NCBI GenBank assembly: GCA_013334245.1
Contig: JAAXXZ010000001.1
Span: 54,675-118,674, forward strand
Source of the DNA: Candidatus Moraniibacteriota bacterium
Lineage (GTDB): Bacteria > Patescibacteriota > Minisyncoccia > Moranbacterales > UBA1568
Direction of reading: 5' to 3'
Length of the DNA: 64,000 nucleotides
Within the stretch, counting starts at the first letter, position 1; every line of letters starts with the position of its first letter. A program made the position numbers and the translations under genes. The notes under the pieces are model-generated. The model saw only the letters and a list, made by a program, of their open reading frames with translations. It searched no databases and was not told the DNA's origin. Below, in pieces: positions 2,358 to 61,793 of this stretch.

Positions 2358-2446
2358 GGGTCGTTAGCTCACCCGAACGAAAGGCTTTACATAGCAATAC
2401 GGGCAGGGTTGGTAAATCCGCCAACTGGCGGAATTTCAGGTTAGCC
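2358..2446 (+). repeat. degenerate tRNA-Lys-derived repeat copy A: first 14 nt of tRNA-Lys (GGGTCGTTAGCTCA), a 36 nt insert, then GTTGGTAAATCCGCCAACTGGCGGAATTTCAGGTTAGCC carrying the TCCGCC-N4-GGCGGA palindrome
   Basis: Direct sequence comparison with the intact tRNA-Lys at 2718-2790 and with copies at 2791-2888 and 3717-3785. Confidence 0.6.
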
Positions 2447-2448
2447 TG

Positions 2449-2727
2449 ATGAATATGGATTCTCTGACGAGATACTCCATATATGTAATACAAAACGAAG
2501 CCGGTAAAAGATATATCGGATATACTTCTGATTTAGAAAAGCGGCTCAAGCGGCATAATGGGGATTTACCGAACAAAACGACGTCCTATACGCGGAAGAA
2601 TCGAGGACACTGGACATTGAAATACAAAGAGGAGTACGCTAGTAGACAGGAGGCATTACGGAGGGAAAAGGAATTGAAAAGTTGCCAAGGCAGAAAGTTT
2701 ATCACAGAGATACTCTCGGGTCGTTAG
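2449..2727 (+). CDS. GIY-YIG nuclease family protein (YhbQ/UPF0213-like small GIY-YIG domain)
   Basis: The 92 aa ORF has YSIYVIQNEAGKRYIGYTSDLEKRLKRHN, the GIY...YIG...R...H core. It is AT-rich (about 38% GC) against the 57% background. Its stop codon TAG is formed by bases 8-10 of the tRNA-Lys gene. Confidence 0.8.
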   Translation: MNMDSLTRYSIYVIQNEAGKRYIGYTSDLEKRLKRHNGDLPNKTTSYTRKNRGHWTLKYKEEYASRQEALRREKELKSCQGRKFITEILSGR

Positions 2728-2790
2728 CTCAGTTGGTAGAGCAGTGGCCTTTTAAGCCAACGGTCGCTGGTTCGAATCCAGCACGACCCA
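2718..2790 (+). tRNA. tRNA-Lys (anticodon UUU)
   Basis: Cloverleaf: acceptor GGGTCGT/ACGACCC, D-arm GCTC-AGTTGGTA-GAGC, anticodon loop CTTTTAA, T-arm GCTGG-TTCGAAT-CCAGC, discriminator A. No encoded CCA. Confidence 0.85.
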
Positions 2791-2888
2791 CACCGAGAAA
2801 ACATGCTCCATATCGATCAGTTGGTAGATCCGCCGGCTGGCGGACTGTTAAGCCAACGGTCGCTGGTTCGAATCCAGCACGACCCACC
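2791..2888 (+). repeat. tRNA-Lys-derived repeat copy C: leader CACCGAGAAAACATGCTCCATATCGATCA plus degenerate tRNA-like GTTGGTAGATCCGCCGGCTGGCGGACTGTTAAGCC...TTCGAATCCAGCACGACCCACC. It lacks a 5' acceptor strand and the anticodon arm is replaced by the palindrome TCCGCCGGCTGGCGGA
   Basis: 3' portion is identical to the tRNA-Lys 3' half. There is no GGGTCGT 5' strand, so no cloverleaf can form. The leader reappears in degenerate form after this copy (CCGAGAATAGACGCTCTATATCTATCAGTTG). Confidence 0.6.
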
Positions 2889-2919
2889 CCGAGAATAGAC
2901 GCTCTATATCTATCAGTTG

Positions 2920-3716
2920 TCCGAAATCCGCATTTGCCCTAGTGCTAAAATTAACAATTCAACAATATGACAACGAATAGATGTATCATAATTCATGGAT
3001 GCCCCTCTGATTCTGAAAAAGAGATGGATCCTGAAACAAGGACCTATGACAAGCACTGGATTCCGTGGTTAAAAAGAAATCTTATTGCAAAAAATATTGA
3101 AACGGAAACTCCCCTCATGCCATCGCCCTGGCAACCTGATTATGAAAAAATCAAAGCTGAGTTTGAAAAATATACTGTTGATGAAAACACAATCTTAGTG
3201 GGTCATAGTTGCGGTTGTGCCTTCTTGGTTCGATGGCTTGGTGAAACTAAGACCAAAATTTTTAAACTTTTTTTAGTCGCGCCTTGGAAAATTCCGCAAG
3301 AGAAAAGGAATGGTGCTGATGTAAATTTCTATACATATCAGATTGACCAGTCTATCAAGGACAGGATAAGTCAAATAGTTATGTTTACTGCGGACGATGA
3401 GGAGGAAGACGGAAAAAAAAGTTTAAAAATTTTTCATGATGTACTTGGTGGCGAGATTATCGAGCTAAAAGGGCGAGGGCATTACTGTTTGGACGATATG
3501 AAAACCGAGGAGCTTCCTGAGCTATTGGAAAAGATTTTGCAATAAGATTTCGAGGCATCCATTTCTTGCTAACAAGGACGGGCAAATGCGGACACCGCAC
3601 AACACTTCATATCCGGTTCAGGAATTTTTCACATTTATGATTCAAGGTAGGGAAAATTCCTTCTCCCAAATTTTTGTTCCGCTATCGCTGCACAAAAAAT
3701 TCGGATGATGCCGAAA
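2920..3716 (+). mobile_element. putative non-autonomous cassette inserted in a tRNA-derived repeat unit. AT-rich, carries the hydrolase gene, has internal inverted repeats TCCGCATTTGCCC (2927-2939) and GGGCAAATGCGGA (3580-3592), and is flanked by GTTG on both sides (2916-2919 and 3717-3720)
   Basis: The repeat unit ...ATCAGTTG|GTAGATCCGCC... is interrupted after GTTG at 2919 and resumes with GTTGGTAGATCCGCC at 3717. GC content drops to about 38% inside. Inverted 13-nt repeats lie near both ends. Confidence 0.4.
2967..3545 (+). CDS. alpha/beta serine hydrolase of the RBBP9/YdeN family (PF06821-like)
   Basis: 192 aa with N-terminal IIIHG, LVGHSCG nucleophile elbow (GxSxG), and C-terminal GHY motif. 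It is a paralogue of the CDS at 8266..8820. AT-rich codon usage. Confidence 0.75.
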   Translation: MTTNRCIIIHGCPSDSEKEMDPETRTYDKHWIPWLKRNLIAKNIETETPLMPSPWQPDYEKIKAEFEKYTVDENTILVGHSCGCAFLVRWLGETKTKIFKLFLVAPWKIPQEKRNGADVNFYTYQIDQSIKDRISQIVMFTADDEEEDGKKSLKIFHDVLGGEIIELKGRGHYCLDDMKTEELPELLEKILQ

Positions 3717-3785
3717 CGTTGGTAGATCCGCCGGCTGGCGGACTGTTAAGCCAACGGTCGCTGGTTCGAATCCAGCACGACCCAC
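3717..3785 (+). repeat. tRNA-Lys-derived repeat copy D (GTTGGTAGATCCGCCGGCTGGCGGACTGTTAAGCC...ACGACCCACC), identical to copy C body
   Basis: 69 nt identical to 2820-2888. No 5' acceptor strand upstream. Confidence 0.6.
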
Positions 3786-3793
3786 CGAAAACG

Positions 3794-8265: not shown

Positions 8266-8820
8266 TCACCCCATCATTTCTTTCAAAGCATCCAGGCATG
8301 GCGGCAGTTCGAACCATCCCGCCGAAGTGTTGAGATGCTTACCGCCCTGAACGACGGTTAATTCGGCGGATAGTTCCGAGGACAGGCGTTCCGCGTCTTT
8401 CATGGGCACATAGGGATCGTCATCTCCCTGAATGACGGCGAAGCGACCGCATTTTGAAGAGATGGTCGAAAAATCGAATCCGTCTTCCAAAAAATTATCT
8501 ATCGTTCTATTGTCATTCTTGGATATCGGCCCGGCAACGAGTACGGCCCCTTGGATGGGATGCACATTGTCATTCTCCAGGTACCGCAATATCGCCGTTG
8601 CACCCAAGGAATGACCTACGAGGTACACCTCGTCGCCGACAGACCATTCTACGGCTCTTTCTATCTCGCCGACCCACTCAGAACACAGCGGCCACTCCGG
8701 ATCCGGCATGGGCAGCGCACAGGCATAGATATCCTTCTTCTCGAGTTCCGCCATGAGCCACGGCCGCCACCCGCCGTTCGGCGTCCCCTGAAAGCCATGG
8801 ATGATAAAGACCTTTTTCAT
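8266..8820 (-). CDS. alpha/beta serine hydrolase of the RBBP9/YdeN family (second paralogue)
   Basis: MKKVFIIHGFQG..., LVGHSLGA (GxSxG), PF06821-like length of 184 aa. Its start overlaps the idi stop. Confidence 0.7.
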   Translation of the reverse strand: MKKVFIIHGFQGTPNGGWRPWLMAELEKKDIYACALPMPDPEWPLCSEWVGEIERAVEWSVGDEVYLVGHSLGATAILRYLENDNVHPIQGAVLVAGPISKNDNRTIDNFLEDGFDFSTISSKCGRFAVIQGDDDPYVPMKDAERLSSELSAELTVVQGGKHLNTSAGWFELPPCLDALKEMMG

Positions 8821-30526: not shown

Positions 30527-30957
30527 CGCTCCCGAAACAGGCTCATAAGCCGGATTCTGTTTGAATCATCATTTATCTGGGACCGTCGTTACCGACGACC
30601 TCGAGCGGCACTTCCCGGCTTTCGCCGGGACACGGCCTTGCACACGGATAAGGGTTTAGCCGTTTCACCCCGCGCGTTTCCGCACGGACTCATCCCGCAC
30701 CTATTTCGCACCCCGCTTTCGCGAACCGGATTTTTTCCGTTCAGAAATATTCCGGCCCTCAGAAATGGATAGGATGTGGAATAGGTGCGGGATGTCCTGC
30801 CCTTTCGGGCTGGGACGTCTCTGCTCGCACCTCGCGCCTCGCGGCGGACGGGTATTACCCGCTACCTGGTCCTCGGCTTGCGCCGATTCATGTGTCCGGA
30901 CTTTCCTCTCAAACGCCGCAAGCGGCGACTGAGCGATGATCCGACCTGTTTCGGGAA
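30527..30957 (-). ncRNA. rnpB: RNase P RNA (bacterial type A)
   Basis: Minus-strand transcript contains the universally conserved P4 strands GAGAGGAAAGTCCGGACAC (5') and ACAGAATCCGGCTTATGAGCC (3'). P1 pairs CCCGAAACAGG with CCTGTTTCGGG. Internal CCAGGTAGCGGGTAATACCCG and GGGTGAAACGGC resemble the P11/P12 regions. Fills a 555 bp gap with no plausible CDS. Confidence 0.8.
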
Positions 30958-59136: not shown

Positions 59137-60750
59137 ATGCCCGCCTTCTATCGAACCTATCGTCCCTCGAGCTTCTCGGACATGGTCGGCCAGGAACATA
59201 TCGTCCGGACACTCGAGAATTCCATCAAGGCCGATACCATTTCTCACGCCTATCTTTTTACCGGCCCGCGCGGCACGGGAAAGACCACCCTTGCACGCCT
59301 CCTCGCGAAAGCGGCCAACTGCACCGATCGCAAGGGAGCGGAGCCCTGCGGGAAATGCGAGAATTGTATCCTTATGGCCGAGGGGCGGTCGCTCGACCTG
59401 ATCGAGTTCGATGCCGCGACACACACGCAGGTCGATAAGATGCGCGAGATCCTTGAAACCGTACCCACTCCGCCCGCCTCCGGACGATACAAGATCTATA
59501 TCATCGACGAGGCACATATGCTCACGACCGGAGCATGGAACGCCTTTCTGAAGACCCTCGAGGAGCCACCGGCGCACGCCGTCTTCATACTCGCGACGAC
59601 CGCGCTTCATAAGGTTCCCGAAACGATCGTCTCGCGCTGTCAACGTTTCGACCTGACCCGGTTTCCCGTGAAGGATCTGGTCGAAAAACTGTCCCGTATC
59701 GCAAAGAAGGAGAATTTGAAGATAGACGACGATGCACTTCGCATGATAGCGCTGGCGGCCGAGGGAGGCATGCGCGATGCCGAGTCCCTCCTCTCGCAGG
59801 TCGCGACGCTCCAGGAAAATCCTATCACCGAGGAAGACGCCTCACTCATCCTCGGCATCACAAGCCAGGCAAAGCTGGCCGGCCTTGCCCGACTGCTCTC
59901 GTCGGACGATCTTCCCGGGGCACTTGCCTACGTGCGCGATCTCTCCGAGAAGGGGGAGAATCTGAACGCGTTCGTTCCGTCCTTCCTAAGGTATCTCCGC
60001 GTACTCCTCCTGGCGTCGATCGGGCCAAAAACGGCGGAAACCGATCTCGAATCACTTACGAAAGAACGACGTCAGGAACTGCTCGCGATCGCGGCTTCGC
60101 TTCCGACCGCGAAAATCGTCGAGATAATCGGTTATTTCCGAACCGCGGAAACTGAAATGAGAAATTCTTCCCTCCCCGAACTTCCGATCGAAATAGCCAT
60201 CGTTAAATCCTTGGCGGATTTCTCTCGACAAAAAGAATCCGTACGGGAGCTCAAGCGTGAGGAGGAGGAAGAAGAGGAAGAGGCTATCGATACCAGGCCA
60301 ACTGTTCCCTACGATTCGCCGAAAGCAATTGTACGGCCCGAAGTCGCTGCAATTTCAGAAATATCGGATACGAACGTCGACAATGCGGTCGAAACAACCT
60401 CACCCGGAGATAGCGTCTCTGTAGCCGGCTCGTTCTCGCTTGTCGACGTGCAGGACCGATGGAAGGAAATCCTCCGGGAAGCCACCCGGGTCAACGCGTC
60501 GCTCACACTCGCCCTTTCGAATGCCCGCCCAAAAGAAGTCGTCGGTAACAAGATCACGATCGCCGTCCGTTTCCCCTTCCATAAGGACCGTCTCGCGGAC
60601 CACGCAAACGCATTGACCCTTGCCCAGGCCTTTGATACCATACTTTCCACCAAGGTGAAGATCGCGATCGTCGTGGAAACGAAGGAGGAACAGGCCGGAA
60701 ATCCGCTCGTTTCCCATGCGCTCTCGATGCTTGGAGGCGAAGTGGTGTAG
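59137..60750 (+). CDS. dnaX: DNA polymerase III subunits gamma/tau
   Basis: AAA+ clamp-loader motifs (GPRGTGKTT, DEAHML, SRC). C-terminal acidic EEEEEEE linker and tau-like domain. Start at internal ATG M35. Confidence 0.9.
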   Translation: MPAFYRTYRPSSFSDMVGQEHIVRTLENSIKADTISHAYLFTGPRGTGKTTLARLLAKAANCTDRKGAEPCGKCENCILMAEGRSLDLIEFDAATHTQVDKMREILETVPTPPASGRYKIYIIDEAHMLTTGAWNAFLKTLEEPPAHAVFILATTALHKVPETIVSRCQRFDLTRFPVKDLVEKLSRIAKKENLKIDDDALRMIALAAEGGMRDAESLLSQVATLQENPITEEDASLILGITSQAKLAGLARLLSSDDLPGALAYVRDLSEKGENLNAFVPSFLRYLRVLLLASIGPKTAETDLESLTKERRQELLAIAASLPTAKIVEIIGYFRTAETEMRNSSLPELPIEIAIVKSLADFSRQKESVRELKREEEEEEEEAIDTRPTVPYDSPKAIVRPEVAAISEISDTNVDNAVETTSPGDSVSVAGSFSLVDVQDRWKEILREATRVNASLTLALSNARPKEVVGNKITIAVRFPFHKDRLADHANALTLAQAFDTILSTKVKIAIVVETKEEQAGNPLVSHALSMLGGEVV

Positions 60751-60867
60751 GAACGAGTCACAAGTTACGAGTCGAAAGTCAGAACGGAAAGTCGGGTCAA
60801 AGAATCTGCCCGCTCCCCCGTCTGAGGGGAGCTGTCGAGTATTCGAGTCTGAAGGGTGGGTGAAGAT

Positions 60868-60939
60868 TGGGGAGTCGCCAAGCGGTAAGGCAACAGGTTT
60901 TGGTCCTGTCATACGGGGGTTCGAATCCCTCCTCCCCAA
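60868..60939 (+). tRNA. tRNA-Gln (anticodon UUG)
   Basis: TGGGGAGTCGCCAAGCGGTAAGGCAACAGGTTTTGGTCCTGTCATACGGGGGTTCGAATCCCTCCTCCCCAA closely parallels E. coli tRNA-Gln (UGGGGUAUCGCCAAGCGGUAAGGCACCGGUUUUUGAUACCGG...). Acceptor TGGGGAG/CTCCCCA, anticodon loop TTTTGGT. Confidence 0.85.
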
Positions 60940-60955
60940 CACGAGCATAGCGAGG

Positions 60956-61470
60956 GTTGGGGAGGAGGGATTCGAACGGGCAGGAACGATCCGCCAGCTG
61001 GCGGAGAGCGTAGATGAATGCGAGCGAGCGCAGCATTCAACTCTGCCCTGGACAAGGAGCGAAGCGACGCGAAAATCCCTCATAACAGATTGCATAGTGA
61101 GCGTTGTTGGGGAGGAGGGATTCGAACGAGCAGAAGCGATCCGCCAGCTGGCGGAGAGCGTAGATGAATGCGAGCGAGCGCAGCATTCAACTCTGCCCTG
61201 GACAAGGAGCGAAGCGACGCGAAAATCCCTCCCCCGCTCTAGCATAGCGAGGGTTGGGGAGGAGGGATTCGAACCGGTGACAGCAAAGCAAGGTAGAGTC
61301 CAGCAGGACGATACCGCCACGTTCGCCGACAAATGCGACCTTAGAAGCATTTGGCGCCACCGTGGACAAGAAGCCTTCCGTAGGAAGGTGACGCGAAAAT
61401 CCTTCCGCATATTCAAACACAGTGAGCGTTGTTGGGGAGGAGGGATTCGAACGAGCAGAAGCGACTACCC
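60956..61470 (-). repeat. tandem array of four MITE-like units (periods of about 150, 147 and 178 bp; last unit truncated). Each starts with GTTGGGGAGGAGGGATTCGAAC, the reverse complement of the tRNA-Gln 3' end. Units 1-2 carry the perfect palindrome TCCGCCAGCTGGCGGA and end in an imperfect terminal inverted repeat (..GCGAAAATCCCTCC)
   Basis: Units at 60956, 61106, 61253 and 61431. Units 1 and 2 are near-identical internally; unit 3 has a different core. ORF-track ORFs 60400..61416 and 60716..61489 across this region are artefacts of the repeats. Confidence 0.6.
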
Positions 61471-61505
61471 GGTTGAATATCGCGAATAAACCTAATACGG
61501 ATATC

Positions 61506-61793
61506 ATGCAAGACAGGATCGAGGCCATCGAGCAGGAATTAGCCGTCATACGCGAACGCAACGCCCGAGTAGAAGCGGACAAGGCTTGGGAGACCGGCCC
61601 GGTCCGCGTCGTTTCCGTCATGATTGTGACATACATGATCGCCGCCATAGTGCTTACGACCATCGGAAATGATGCGCCGATACGTAACGCACTAATTCCC
61701 ACACTAGGTTATTATCTCTCGACACGATCGCTCAGAATCGTCCGTTCCGTATGGTCTAAAGATCAGCTCCGCTCGAATCTGAAGCGAATATAG
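61506..61793 (+). CDS. hypothetical small protein with N-terminal coiled coil and two TM helices
   Basis: 95 aa from the internal ATG of track ORF 61422..61793; the upstream part of that ORF lies in repeat unit 4. Confidence 0.35.
   Translation: MQDRIEAIEQELAVIRERNARVEADKAWETGPVRVVSVMIVTYMIAAIVLTTIGNDAPIRNALIPTLGYYLSTRSLRIVRSVWSKDQLRSNLKRI

What the first reader, a model, noticed from the sequence alone, without database searches (positions are those of the whole stretch)
60940..61475. Four inverted MITE-like tandem units built on the tRNA-Gln 3' end, directly abutting tRNA-Gln
Fourteen bases after the tRNA-Gln 3' end, the reverse complement of that same 3' end (GTTGGGGAGGAGGGATTCGAAC) begins. 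It repeats at about 150 bp intervals four times (60956, 61106, 61253, 61431). Units 1 and 2 are near-identical. Each contains the perfect 16-nt palindrome TCCGCCAGCTGGCGGA and ends in an imperfect inverted copy of its own start (...AATCCCTCC), giving an element of about 140 bp with terminal inverted repeats. Unit 3 has the same ends but a different 130 bp core. Unit 4 is truncated where a small membrane-protein ORF starts. Head-to-head orientation relative to the tRNA, tandem copy number and terminal inverted repeats fit a non-autonomous mobile element or att-site scars from an element that targets tRNA 3' ends. The spacers in units 1 and 2 are identical, so this is not a CRISPR array.
Basis: seen in the sequence. 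Interest (0 to 1): 0.7.

Follow-up and report, generated by a model that had tools for sequence, protein, structure and literature searches.

The report
Structured repeats mirroring tRNA-Gln 3' end
Just after a glutamine tRNA gene in a Moranbacteria (CPR) genome lie three and a bit copies of a ~150-base hairpin-rich non-coding module, each headed by a perfect backwards copy of the tRNA's last 22 bases; it resembles an apparently undescribed group of structured inserts that sit beside tRNA genes across CPR bacteria and copy the end of whichever tRNA they adjoin.

Summary
tRNA-Gln (60868-60940, +) is followed by four perfect reverse-complement copies of its last 22 nt (60956, 61106, 61253, 61431), which head three full units and one truncated unit.

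The units are not classical MITEs or simple att scars.
- Orthologous loci in eight related Moranbacteria carry 0 to 4 units.
- Helices covary.
- Units are 76-94% identical between genomes whose neutral sites are only 42-76% identical.
- The array is a tandem repeat whose first period begins in the tRNA T loop, as in the E. coli tyrV/rttR 178-bp repeats.

A covariance model of a CPR-wide structured element (30 of 36 pairs covary) hits units 1 and 2 weakly. That element always lies beside a tRNA, and its ends copy that tRNA's 3' end. It has no Rfam match.

The 16-nt palindrome is an exchangeable hairpin. It also marks GIY-YIG/pseudo-tRNA cassettes across phyla, including this window's tRNA-Lys locus.

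Best reading (about 0.4): ORF-less, folded, non-autonomous modules that accrete at the tRNA 3' end by recombination. Main rival (about 0.33): tRNA-operon-associated structured RNAs. The transcribed strand and any enzyme are unknown.

The parts
60868..60940 (+). tRNA-Gln(UUG). Its last 22 nt (60919-60940) are the template of all unit heads, and the tandem repeat effectively begins in its T loop.
   Evidence: ARAGORN; Rfam tRNA 60.9 bits.
60941..60955 (.). 15-nt tRNA trailer, which forms the loop of the 22-bp perfect inverted repeat. Its 3' part (AGCATAGCGAGG) recurs before unit 3.
   Evidence: I4, D2; sequence. The plus-strand hairpin folds at -48.5 kcal/mol, against -27.8 for the cloverleaf.
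60956..61082 (-). Unit 1 (type I core). Head X' 60956-60977; P2 60978-60983 pairs with 61043-61048; palindrome hairpin C 60990-61005; hairpin B 61015-61021 pairs with 61033-61039; conserved TGGACAAGGAG 61049-61059; mini-hairpin A GCGAAGC 61059-61065; tail GACGCGAAAATCCCTC 61066-61081. The tail pairs with the head to form P1.
   Evidence: Covariance model R1 hit 60964-61087 on the minus strand, 24.5 bits, E 6e-4.
61083..61105 (.). Inter-unit spacer (degenerate copy of the tRNA acceptor 3' strand plus trailer).
   Evidence: Sequence; family D2.
61106..61232 (-). Unit 2 (type I core), 98% identical to unit 1. Its P2 is GAGCAG/CTGCCC, which is A.C on the plus strand and G.U on the minus strand.
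   Evidence: R1 hit 61114-61237 on the minus strand, 28.2 bits, E 6e-5.
61233..61252 (.). Inter-unit spacer: CCCGCTCT plus the trailer copy AGCATAGCGAGG.
   Evidence: Sequence; (I1, D2).
61253..61406 (-). Unit 3 (type II core). It has the same head and tail. P2 is GGTG/CACC, hairpin C' is long (GGTAGAGTCC AGCA GGACGATACC) with no palindrome, and hairpin A is long (CCTTCC GTA GGAAGG).
   Evidence: nhmmer core profile E 5e-17.
61431..61464 (-). Unit 4, truncated: head plus 12 nt identical to unit 2. It ends where the palindrome would begin.
   Evidence: (D2).
61506..61793 (+). Downstream 95-aa ORF with hydrophobic segments and no Pfam match. It is conserved next to the array in L042 but not in L043, so it is a neighbour and not part of the element.
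2359..3786 (+). Related locus in the same window holding the other three copies of the palindrome (2417, 2829, 3727). It comprises a tRNA-Lys 5' fragment, the palindrome, a GIY-YIG ORF (2449-2727), tRNA-Lys (2718-2791), a palindrome-bearing pseudo-tRNA-Lys (2812-2888), a Ser_hydrolase cassette (2967-3545) and a second pseudo-tRNA-Lys (3718-3786).

Best explanation
The array is a set of ORF-less, hairpin-structured, non-autonomous modules anchored on the 3' end of tRNA-Gln. They are gained, lost and duplicated by recombination at that anchor (tandem accretion or unequal exchange).

Anatomy of a module, read on the tRNA strand:
- a perfect inverted copy of the tRNA's last 22-23 nt;
- a folded core (P2 carrying hairpins B and C, plus a side hairpin A);
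- a short direct copy of the T-loop/T-stem 3' strand (AATCCCTCC), which pairs with the head to close the module (P1);
- a copy of the tRNA trailer.

The repeat period therefore starts inside the tRNA gene at the T loop, and the palindromic TTCGAA is the recurring junction.

Shown: the anatomy, the covarying helices, conservation above neutral, the copy-number polymorphism, and a CPR-wide class of similarly built inserts whose ends copy the adjacent tRNA gene with its trailer and terminator.

Inferred:
- the folded form, most simply single-stranded DNA as with integron attC or the CTX-phage attP hairpin, is the substrate of a recombinase or nuclease supplied in trans;
- the small GIY-YIG nuclease, whose cassettes carry the same palindrome, is a candidate;
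- read-through transcripts with the tRNA are a by-product or secondary function.
For: 1. Copy number at the orthologous DnaX-tRNA-Gln locus is 0, 0, 1.5, at least 1, at least 2, 3+, 3+ and 4 in eight related genomes. The orders of type I and type II units differ.
2. The window is closest to L042 by DnaX (90% aa identity, 76% third-position identity). Its units are closest to those of L045 (94%, against 80% for L042).
3. In the CPR-wide class, two cores 98% identical sit beside tRNA-Lys and tRNA-Arg in one genome. Each has ends matching its own tRNA, including the TTCGATT T-loop variant of tRNA-Arg.
4. In L032, L016 and L009 a ~57-nt direct repeat of terminator, trailer and tRNA 3' end brackets the insert. 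This means the copy was made from DNA, not from mature tRNA.
5. Of 101 tRNAs in the fetched loci, 26 have a direct copy of their 3' end downstream.
6. Heterogeneous modules pile up in tandem at one tRNA: GIY-YIG ORF modules, a hydrolase cassette and ORF-less structured units.
7. Canonical units are bracketed by terminators, with no room for a promoter on either side.
8. The same palindrome occurs in units 1 and 2 and at both junctions of GIY-YIG cassettes.
9. Both strands fold equally well, as expected for a DNA-level structure. Hairpin A is GCGAAGC, which I recall from memory as a very stable DNA mini-hairpin.
Against: - No recombinase, transposase or Rep gene lies next to any copy, and no protein family is shared among the class B loci.
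- Gln-type cores were found only at the tRNA-Gln locus, so transposition to new sites is not shown for this subtype.
- The window's units resemble the canonical class only weakly: 24-28 bits, 31-37% core identity.
- Strong sequence conservation at a fixed locus and covariation fit a host-useful RNA equally well.
- Simple integration predicts direct repeats, not the perfect inverted head. How both ends become re-templated on a new tRNA is not explained by any demonstrated mechanism.
- Relatives lack the palindrome, so the link to GIY-YIG is indirect.
Confidence: 0.4

Rival explanations
1. The units are structured non-coding RNA genes or elements tied to the tRNA operon. They are transcribed with tRNA-Gln or antisense to it and cut into ~130-170-nt RNAs. 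The perfectly conserved 22 nt either pairs with the tRNA-Gln 3' end (plus-strand RNA) or mimics it (minus-strand RNA), for example as a regulator, a decoy or a processing signal. The array changes length only by unequal recombination, as in the E. coli tyrT/tyrV-rttR repeats.
For: - Helices covary in the Gln units. In the CPR-wide class, 30 of 36 pairs covary and 91% of cells are paired, against 31-48% for slid controls.
- Units are 76-94% identical between genomes in which DnaX third positions are 51-76% identical and the DnaX-tRNA spacer 42-64%.
- The 22-nt head is perfectly kept although only 9-13 nt of it pair within the unit.
- In L053 a unit sits between tRNA-Arg and tRNA-Lys with 22- and 11-nt spacers and no terminator, like a member of a tRNA operon.
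- E. coli offers a precedent: 178-bp repeats overlapping the tRNA-Tyr 3' end, annotated as small RNA RttR.
Against: - The units are dispensable and vary in copy number among close relatives. They are absent in L046 and L047.
- Different lineages pair the element with different tRNAs.
- Most canonical units are fenced by terminators on both sides with no promoter space.
- G.U versus A.C counts do not pick out a strand.
- A plus-strand read-through would trap the tRNA's 3' end in a -48.5 kcal/mol hairpin.
- There is no Rfam match, even at E of 1 or below for the canonical unit in L053 and 10 or below for this window's region.
Confidence: 0.33
2. The array is a passive tandem duplication: slippage or unequal crossing-over seeded by the hairpin-prone T-loop palindrome and the inverted repeat. 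It has no function beyond that of the tRNA flank.
For: - The repeat period begins inside the tRNA, and the far end stops mid-unit.
- Units 1 and 2 are 98% identical.
- E. coli tyrV has an analogous repeat.
Against: - Conservation is far above neutral between genomes.
- Compensatory changes occur in P2 and in hairpins B and C'.
- Two core types are maintained across genomes.
- The module resembles a covarying CPR-wide element.
Confidence: 0.1
3. The units are classical MITEs: deletion derivatives of an insertion sequence, moved by its transposase, which recognises the terminal inverted repeats.
For: - The units are short and non-coding with imperfect 9-13-bp terminal inverted repeats.
- Copy number varies.
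Against: - In the related CPR-wide class the 'TIRs' change with the neighbouring tRNA.
- There is no short target-site duplication and no dispersed copies in the window.
- No IS shares these ends, and internal hairpins covary.
Confidence: 0.05
4. The repeats are att-site scars left by repeated integration and excision of a large integrase-bearing element (phage or island) that targets tRNA-Gln.
For: - tRNA 3' ends are classic att sites.
- Direct copies of tRNA 3' ends are common in the related loci.
Against: - The perfect copies are inverted, not direct.
- The DNA between them is conserved and structured.
- No integrase or cargo is present at any of the eight orthologous loci.
Confidence: 0.05

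Closest known systems
E. coli tyrT/tyrV distal 178-bp repeats (rttR / rtT RNA, tpr)
   Same: A tandem repeat directly follows a tRNA gene. Its proximal copy overlaps the last ~19 nt of the tRNA, so every period carries a piece of the tRNA 3' end. There are about three copies (verified). From memory, the E. coli repeats are co-transcribed with the tRNA and processed to a small RNA.
   Different: - In E. coli the tRNA-derived piece is a direct copy. Here the perfect copy is inverted and the direct one is reduced to 9-11 nt.
- There is no sequence or Rfam similarity.
- The window's units have covarying multi-hairpin cores and resemble a class of elements found at many different tRNAs.
Bacterial MITEs and palindromic repeats (Correia, ERIC, RUP, REP/BIME, Rickettsia palindromic elements)
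   Same: They are ~100-170 bp, non-coding, have inverted-repeat ends, fold into long hairpins and vary in copy number between strains.
   Different: - Those families have family-constant ends and short target duplications, and they are scattered around the genome.
- Here the ends copy the adjacent tRNA gene, and the units are confined to the tRNA's 3' flank.
Folded single-strand recombination sites: integron attC arrays (CALINs) and the CTX-phage attP(+) hairpin at dif
   Same: - The secondary structure is conserved while the sequence varies.
- Accretion is tandem.
- The layout [target site]-loop-[inverted copy]-body-[partial direct copy] is, by my own inference from the published strand-exchange mechanism, what integration of a hairpin att site would leave.
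   Different: - No IntI or Xer-type enzyme has been linked to these elements.
- The AAC/GTT triplets sit at the loop side of the stem, not at its base as in attC.
- The modules carry no ORFs.
- None of this was tested beyond the layout.
Tandem accretion of integrase-less elements at tRNA att sites (CIMEs; tycheposon satellites)
   Same: Small elements lacking an integrase, bounded by repeats of a tRNA 3' end, accumulate in tandem. They show presence/absence polymorphism.
   Different: - Those elements are kilobases long, carry genes, and are bounded by direct att repeats.
- These are 125-175 bp, folded, and headed by an inverted copy.
Free-standing GIY-YIG homing endonuclease cassettes in tRNA gene clusters (T4 SegB, PMC2330249)
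   Same: A small GIY-YIG ORF is embedded in tRNA genes, and tRNA segments are duplicated around it. This applies to the window's tRNA-Lys locus and to class A loci.
   Different: - The Gln units have no ORF.
- The shared feature is only the 16-nt palindrome, which relatives replace with other hairpins.

Membership tests
MITE | Short, non-coding, with terminal inverted repeats | tested here: met
   Units are 127-154 bp. Head GGGGAGGAGGGATT pairs with tail AATCC(C/T)TCC. ORFs across the array run through the tRNA and are not genes.
MITE | Family-constant TIRs recognised by a cognate transposase, with a related autonomous IS | tested here: not met
   In the related CPR-wide class the ends follow the neighbouring tRNA (Ser, Arg, Lys, Pro, Ala, Gly; Gln here). 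No shared protein lies near the copies. The rest of the genome was not available.
MITE | Short target-site duplication, with copies dispersed in the genome | tested here: not met
   Flanks are copies of the tRNA 3' end and trailer, not 2-10-bp duplications. The head, tail and core occur only at this locus in the window and in the loci held.
Integrative-element att repeats / tandem accretion | Each insert bounded by direct repeats of the tRNA 3' end | tested here: inconclusive
   This is clear for canonical class B and for the GIY-YIG modules: 26 of 101 tRNAs have a direct copy downstream, and L032 has a 57-nt repeat. In the window only AATCCCTCC plus a 12-nt trailer copy is direct, and the perfect copy is inverted.
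Integrative-element att repeats / tandem accretion | Site-specific recombinase encoded in cis or present in the genome | not tested
   None lies beside the arrays in eight orthologous loci. Only a crude motif scan of the window's ORFs was run. The genome-wide gene content was not available.
tRNA-3'-end-seeded tandem repeat (E. coli rttR type) | Tandem repeat whose first period overlaps the tRNA 3' end | tested here: met
   The tRNA segment AATCCCTCCTCCCCAACACGAGCATAGCGAGG aligns with the unit 2/3 junction AATCCCTCCCCCGCTCTAGCATAGCGAGG. The E. coli reference was verified.
tRNA-3'-end-seeded tandem repeat (E. coli rttR type) | Homology to rtT RNA, or a processed transcript | tested here: not met
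   There is no rtT or other Rfam hit at gathering score or at E of 10 or below. Transcription cannot be tested with these tools.
CPR tRNA-flank structured element ('class B', defined here) | Match to covariance model R1, on the strand opposite the adjacent tRNA, with closing stem P1 made from the T-loop/T-stem sequence | tested here: met
   Unit 2 scores 28.2 bits (E 6e-5) and unit 1 24.5 bits (E 6e-4), both on the minus strand in full register. E-values are rough.
CPR tRNA-flank structured element ('class B', defined here) | Homologous core (arms D1 and D2) | tested here: inconclusive
   Core identity to canonical members is only 31-37%, against 53-98% among them. Unit 3 and the palindrome-less relatives score 15 bits or less. 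The Gln units have a different helix plan (hairpin A, and P2 enclosing B and C).
tRNA, tmRNA or other tRNA-like RNA | Cloverleaf, or acceptor stem plus T arm, recognised by ARAGORN or Rfam | tested here: not met
   No call on either strand of the units. The sequence before TTCGAAT cannot pair with CCCTC, so there is no T stem.
CRISPR array | Short direct repeats separated by unique spacers of similar length | tested here: not met
   The intervals are 125-155 nt, and those of units 1 and 2 are 98% identical.
Integron attC / CALIN | R''(RYYYAAC)...R'(GTTRRRY) at the base of an imperfect hairpin; IntI | tested here: not met
   CCCCAAC and GTTGGGG flank the loop, at the top of the stem and not its base. 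No integrase was found nearby.

The most novel reading that the evidence does not exclude
CPR bacteria carry a previously undescribed class of ~110-170-nt folded elements (RNA or single-stranded DNA). These elements settle beside tRNA genes and rebuild both of their ends, one inverted and one direct, from the 3' end of whichever tRNA gene they adjoin. This would be either a new kind of target-templated miniature mobile element, possibly serviced by small GIY-YIG nucleases that share its palindromic hairpin, or a new family of tRNA-end-mimicking or tRNA-end-pairing RNAs. The tRNA-Gln array in this window would be a lineage-specific, tandemly amplified offshoot.
Probability: 0.35. Interest if true: 0.8.

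Novelty: new variant of a known kind. Interest (0 to 1): 0.6.

Why it matters
If the reading holds, tRNA 3' flanks in the tiny genomes of CPR bacteria host a conserved, structured, ORF-less element whose ends are templated by the neighbouring tRNA gene. No catalogued repeat family that I know of, and no Rfam family, matches it.

That would give a concrete system for asking two questions: how minimal mobile DNA or RNA can use the universal T-loop palindrome as an anchor, and why streamlined genomes keep it under selection.

It also flags a cross-phylum association between small GIY-YIG nucleases, a fixed 16-nt palindrome and partial tRNA copies. That association affects tRNA annotation, because ARAGORN calls some of these copies as odd tRNAs.

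There is also a practical consequence. The 22-bp perfect inverted repeat at a tRNA end can confuse assembly and tRNA callers, as the L042 tRNA-Gln may show.

Tried and rejected
- **Known RNA family.** Rfam found nothing for the units at gathering score on the window and on 16 loci. It also found nothing with relaxed E-values on this region and on the canonical unit in L053.
- **tRNA-like reading of the minus strand.** There is no T stem and no ARAGORN or tmRNA call. It was rejected.
- **Literature.** The palindrome string occurs in no paper. Searches on GIY-YIG with tRNA, on CPR structured RNAs and on rtT gave nothing directly relevant. Two papers were opened: one on group I introns in Patescibacteria tRNAs, one on tRNA gene fragments. 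Their abstracts and section lists give no sign that they describe this element.
- **Viral contigs.** There were no real matches for the palindrome plus T loop, for the class B core or for the Gln-unit tail.
- **Metagenome scan.** It returned mostly chance hits in coding DNA. It added only L053 and its duplicate L056, plus duplicates of L002 and L013.
- **Strand assignment from G.U versus A.C counts.** Both strands fold about equally well.
- **tRNA-primed reverse-transcription origin (PBS-like antisense including CCA).** This was rejected. The copies include the genomic trailer and terminator, so they were made from DNA.
- **Core inserted into a tRNA T loop.** This was rejected. The sequence after the core is a sense copy of the T loop/3' half, not the antisense 5' half.
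- **Conserved neighbouring gene.** No protein family is shared among class B loci.
- **Mobile hydrolase cassette.** The Ser_hydrolase genes beside tRNA-Lys (window) and tRNA-Gln (L046) are only 40% identical, and L046 has no repeats.
- **Source contig.** An exact-match look-up with the EamA protein found nothing.
Full report
**1. The observation**

ARAGORN and Rfam place tRNA-Gln(UUG) at 60868-60940 on the plus strand. The reverse complement of its last 22 nt, GTTGGGGAGGAGGGATTCGAAC, occurs without mismatch at 60956, 61106, 61253 and 61431 and nowhere else in 64 kb. Chance expectation is 0.01.

The first copy lies 15 nt after the tRNA, so the tRNA end and the first head form a perfect 22-bp inverted repeat. 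Units 1 and 2 are 98% identical over 126 nt. All three full units end in GACGCGAAAATCC(C/T)TC, whose AATCCCTCC is an inverted partner of the head.

The 16-nt palindrome TCCGCCAGCTGGCGGA is in units 1 and 2 only. Unit 4 matches unit 2 up to 61464 and stops exactly where the palindrome would begin. The next ORF starts at 61506.

The description is therefore correct apart from small details: the gap is 15 nt, not 14; the palindrome is not in unit 3; and unit 3 shares blocks and architecture with the others.

**2. Organism and orthologous loci**

The DnaX protein just upstream has a 100% match in a Candidatus Moranbacteria MAG. I fetched the DnaX-tRNA-Gln locus from eight relatives with DnaX 70-90% identical. 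Gene order is conserved, but the number of units is not.

| Locus | Units after tRNA-Gln |
|---|---|
| L046, L047 | none; their tRNA-Gln has a different T arm |
| L049 | one plus a fragment |
| L048 | at least one, then the contig ends |
| L045 | at least two, then the contig ends |
| L042, window | three plus a stump |
| L043 | four |

Two core types alternate in different orders. Type I has P2 GGGCAG/CTGCCC. Type II has GGTGGC/GCCACC and a long hairpin.

Most relatives lack the palindrome. In its place type I units carry another hairpin (GACATGAGCGAAGCGAGTAGTCGAGTGTC). L045 has the palindrome with one mismatch. The palindrome is therefore an exchangeable hairpin, not the defining part.

**3. 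Structure and constraint**

An alignment of 12 units (A1) folds into a consistent plan:
- a closing stem P1 (GGAGGGATTT/GAATCCCTCC);
- an inner stem P2 enclosing hairpins B and C;
- a side hairpin A.

Double-sided changes occur in P2 at three columns. They also occur in hairpin B, for example AAATGC/GCATTT against AAATGT/ACATTT. Hairpin A varies from GCGAAGC, GCGTAGC and GCGGAGC to a 7-bp stem, always with a C(GNA)G loop on the plus strand.

Single units fold somewhat better than shuffles on both strands, with z-scores of -1.3 to -2.8.

Between genomes the best unit-to-unit identity is 76-94%. DnaX third-codon positions are 51-76% identical and the DnaX-tRNA spacer 42-64%. The units are therefore under constraint or are exchanged between lineages.

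The window is closest to L042 by DnaX, yet its units are closest to those of L045.

G.U versus A.C counts and alignment-fold energies do not favour either strand.

If the plus strand is read through from the tRNA, the 22-bp hairpin (-48.5 kcal/mol) would out-compete the cloverleaf (-27.8).

**4. The palindrome led to a wider picture**

The other three near-copies of the palindrome in the window all lie at the tRNA-Lys locus. That locus reads, in order:
- a 14-nt copy of the tRNA's 5' end;
- the palindrome;
- a 92-aa GIY-YIG ORF (Pfam 5.5e-16) ending inside the tRNA;
- the tRNA;
- a pseudo-tRNA in which the palindrome replaces the D-stem 3' strand and the anticodon-stem 5' strand;
- a Ser_hydrolase cassette;
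- a second pseudo-tRNA.

Scanning one genome per species for the palindrome followed by a T loop gave 41 loci, where about 0.1 would be expected by chance by my own estimate. They fall into two classes.

- **Class A.** These are palindrome-substituted tRNA copies of Lys, Val, Gly and Arg types. They occur in Bacteroidota, Cloacimonadota, Clostridia, Gammaproteobacteria and CPR. In nine loci a homologue of the window's GIY-YIG ORF lies immediately upstream, and the palindrome often sits on both sides of the ORF.
- **Class B.** These occur only in CPR. They are ~110-170-nt ORF-less units lying on the strand opposite an adjacent tRNA.

**5. Class B anatomy**

Each unit has three features:
- It starts with a copy of the antisense 3' end of the neighbouring tRNA. 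The copy includes the complement of an encoded CCA (L006, L031). In L016, L032 and L009 it also includes the trailer and terminator, giving a ~57-nt direct repeat that brackets the insert.
- It then has a core with two arms.
- It ends with GTTCGAATCC, a T-stem 3' copy, an inserted covarying hairpin and an acceptor-like strand.

Seven sequences give 19 of 36 pairs with compensatory changes.

A covariance model finds further copies beside tRNA-Lys in three Moranbacteria loci, and three copies beside Pro, Gly and Arg tRNAs in one Saccharibacteria contig. On the 15-sequence model-fitted alignment:
- 91% of cells pair, against 31-48% for slid controls;
- 30 of 36 pairs show double changes;
- no shuffle reaches the observed values.

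That alignment leans towards the model, but the independent MAFFT result agrees.

In L053 two units with 98% identical cores sit beside tRNA-Lys and tRNA-Arg. Each has ends matching its own tRNA, down to the TTCGATT T-loop variant of tRNA-Arg. The ends are therefore re-templated from the adjacent tRNA gene, and the trailer copies show this happens at the DNA level.

Across 101 tRNAs in all the loci held, 26 have a direct copy of their 3' end downstream. A contiguous inverted copy is found only at the Moranbacteria tRNA-Gln.

No Rfam family matches a canonical unit at E of 1 or below. No protein family is shared among the loci. Nothing real turned up in viral contigs.

**6. Where the window's units fit**

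The class B model hits unit 2 at 28.2 bits (E 6e-5) and unit 1 at 24.5 bits (E 6e-4). Both hits are on the minus strand and in full register.

Core identity to canonical members is only 31-37%. Unit 3 and the palindrome-less relatives score poorly, and the helix plan differs. I therefore treat the Gln units as a lineage-specific relative or analogue, not a proven member. A core-only profile finds them only at tRNA-Gln loci.

Seen on the tRNA strand, the array is a tandem repeat. Its first period starts in the tRNA's T loop. The tRNA segment AATCCCTCCTCCCCAACACGAGCATAGCGAGG aligns with the junction AATCCCTCCCCCGCTCTAGCATAGCGAGG. Its last period is cut short.

This is the layout of the E. coli tyrV-rttR repeats, which I verified: three 178-bp periods, the proximal one overlapping the last 19 nt of tRNA-Tyr. 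The difference is that here the perfectly kept tRNA-derived piece is the inverted one.

**7. Mechanism**

These points are shown:
- the modular anatomy and the covarying folds;
- constraint above neutral;
- gain and loss between relatives;
- ends templated by the tRNA gene in the wider class;
- co-accretion of different module types at one tRNA;
- the shared palindrome with GIY-YIG cassettes.

From these I infer, at about 0.4, that the units are non-autonomous, folded modules that accrete at the tRNA 3' end by recombination. The T-loop palindrome TTCGAA would be the recurrent junction, and the fold would serve as the substrate. The layout [tRNA end]-loop-[inverted copy]-body-[partial direct copy] is, by my own inference from the mechanism of hairpin att integration (CTX phage at dif, as I recall it), what such a site would leave. 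No enzyme is identified, and re-templating of both ends is unexplained.

The main rival, at about 0.33, is a structured RNA made with or against the tRNA operon.
- For it: the conservation, the perfectly kept 22-nt head of which only 9-13 nt pair internally, and the operon-like position in L053.
- Against it: the units are dispensable, the partner tRNA changes between lineages, and most canonical units are fenced by terminators with no promoter space.

Passive duplication, a classical MITE and scars of a large element are each unlikely, for the reasons listed under the rival explanations.

**8. Novelty and verdict**

It is not a TIR-transposase MITE or an inert scar, and covariation is present.

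The nearest known things are:
- the E. coli rttR repeats (layout);
- palindromic repeat families (size and fold);
- folded att sites and CIME-type accretion (behaviour).

None fits fully. I rate it a new variant of a known kind, with a moderate chance that the CPR-wide tRNA-mirroring element is a new class.

Noticed in passing
window 2359-3786: The tRNA-Lys(UUU) locus is a composite. It holds a 14-nt copy of the tRNA 5' end, the palindrome, and a 92-aa GIY-YIG ORF whose stop codon lies inside the tRNA. The intact tRNA follows, then a palindrome-substituted pseudo-tRNA, a Ser_hydrolase gene, a second pseudo-tRNA and a terminator. It looks like a homing-type cassette that splits or duplicates a tRNA gene.
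   Followed up: partly
L005, L011, L014, L026, L028, L032, L035, L039 (palindrome positions): The same combination occurs in Bacteroidota, Clostridia, Gammaproteobacteria and CPR: a small GIY-YIG ORF immediately followed by a tRNA copy whose D-stem 3' and anticodon-stem 5' strands are replaced by TCCGCCNNCTGGCGGA. L026 has two such units in tandem after tRNA-Val. ARAGORN calls some of them as 95-nt 'tRNA-Thr'.
   Followed up: partly
L041 6582-6660; also L030, L036, L018, L017: Several Bacteroidota families carry full-length tRNA-Gly(CCC)-like genes with the palindrome in place of the D-stem 3' and anticodon-stem 5' strands. The T stem covaries (GCGGG/CCCGT versus GAGGG/CCCTT). No GIY-YIG homologue was detected in these loci, though L018 has a tRNA-Gly(ccc) about 95 nt away. 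They may be a functional tRNA-like RNA.
   Followed up: no
window 2916-2940 and 3579-3603: The Ser_hydrolase gene between the two pseudo-tRNA-Lys copies is itself bounded by ~24-nt imperfect inverted repeats (GTTGTCCGAAATCCGCATTTGCCC / GGGCAAATGCGGACACCGCACAAC).
   Followed up: no
L042 5813-5890: In the closest relative with DNA available, the tRNA-Gln T loop and T-stem 3' strand are replaced (GGGGGTGGGGATAACACCTCCCCAAC), and ARAGORN does not call the gene. This is either a real disruption next to the inverted repeat or an assembly problem caused by it.
   Followed up: no
L053 8502-8967: Two unit-plus-tRNA modules lie back to back (Lys and Arg). Their cores are 98% identical, but their ends are tRNA-specific. 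The Arg unit sits between the two tRNAs with 22- and 11-nt spacers and no terminator.
   Followed up: yes
L013 2145-2357 (minus strand): The tRNA partnered with a class B unit carries a group I intron (Rfam 69 bits), and ARAGORN misses it. This fits reports of intron-bearing tRNAs in Patescibacteria (bioRxiv 10.1101/2025.07.03.662931).
   Followed up: no
window 61049-61076 and 61199-61226 (+): The units contain promoter-like hexamers, TGGACA-16 nt-GAAAAT, formed by two of the most conserved blocks. The spacing is lost in units with the long form of hairpin A.
   Followed up: partly
window 8269-8820 (-), 2967-3545 (+); L046 5779-6345: Genes of or resembling the Ser_hydrolase (YdeN-like) family lie next to tRNA genes three times: beside tRNA-Val and tRNA-Lys in the window and beside tRNA-Gln in L046. 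The 8269-8820 ORF was judged only by eye from its N-terminal sequence. The Lys and Gln copies are only 40% identical, so this is not a recent cassette.
   Followed up: partly
window 30530-30952 (-): The bacterial RNase P RNA scores only 112 bits, just above the gathering score of 100.
   Followed up: no
window 60400-61489: ORFs of 257 aa (+) and 338 aa (-) run straight through the array and the tRNA. They are artefacts of the repeat's period and composition, not genes.
   Followed up: yes
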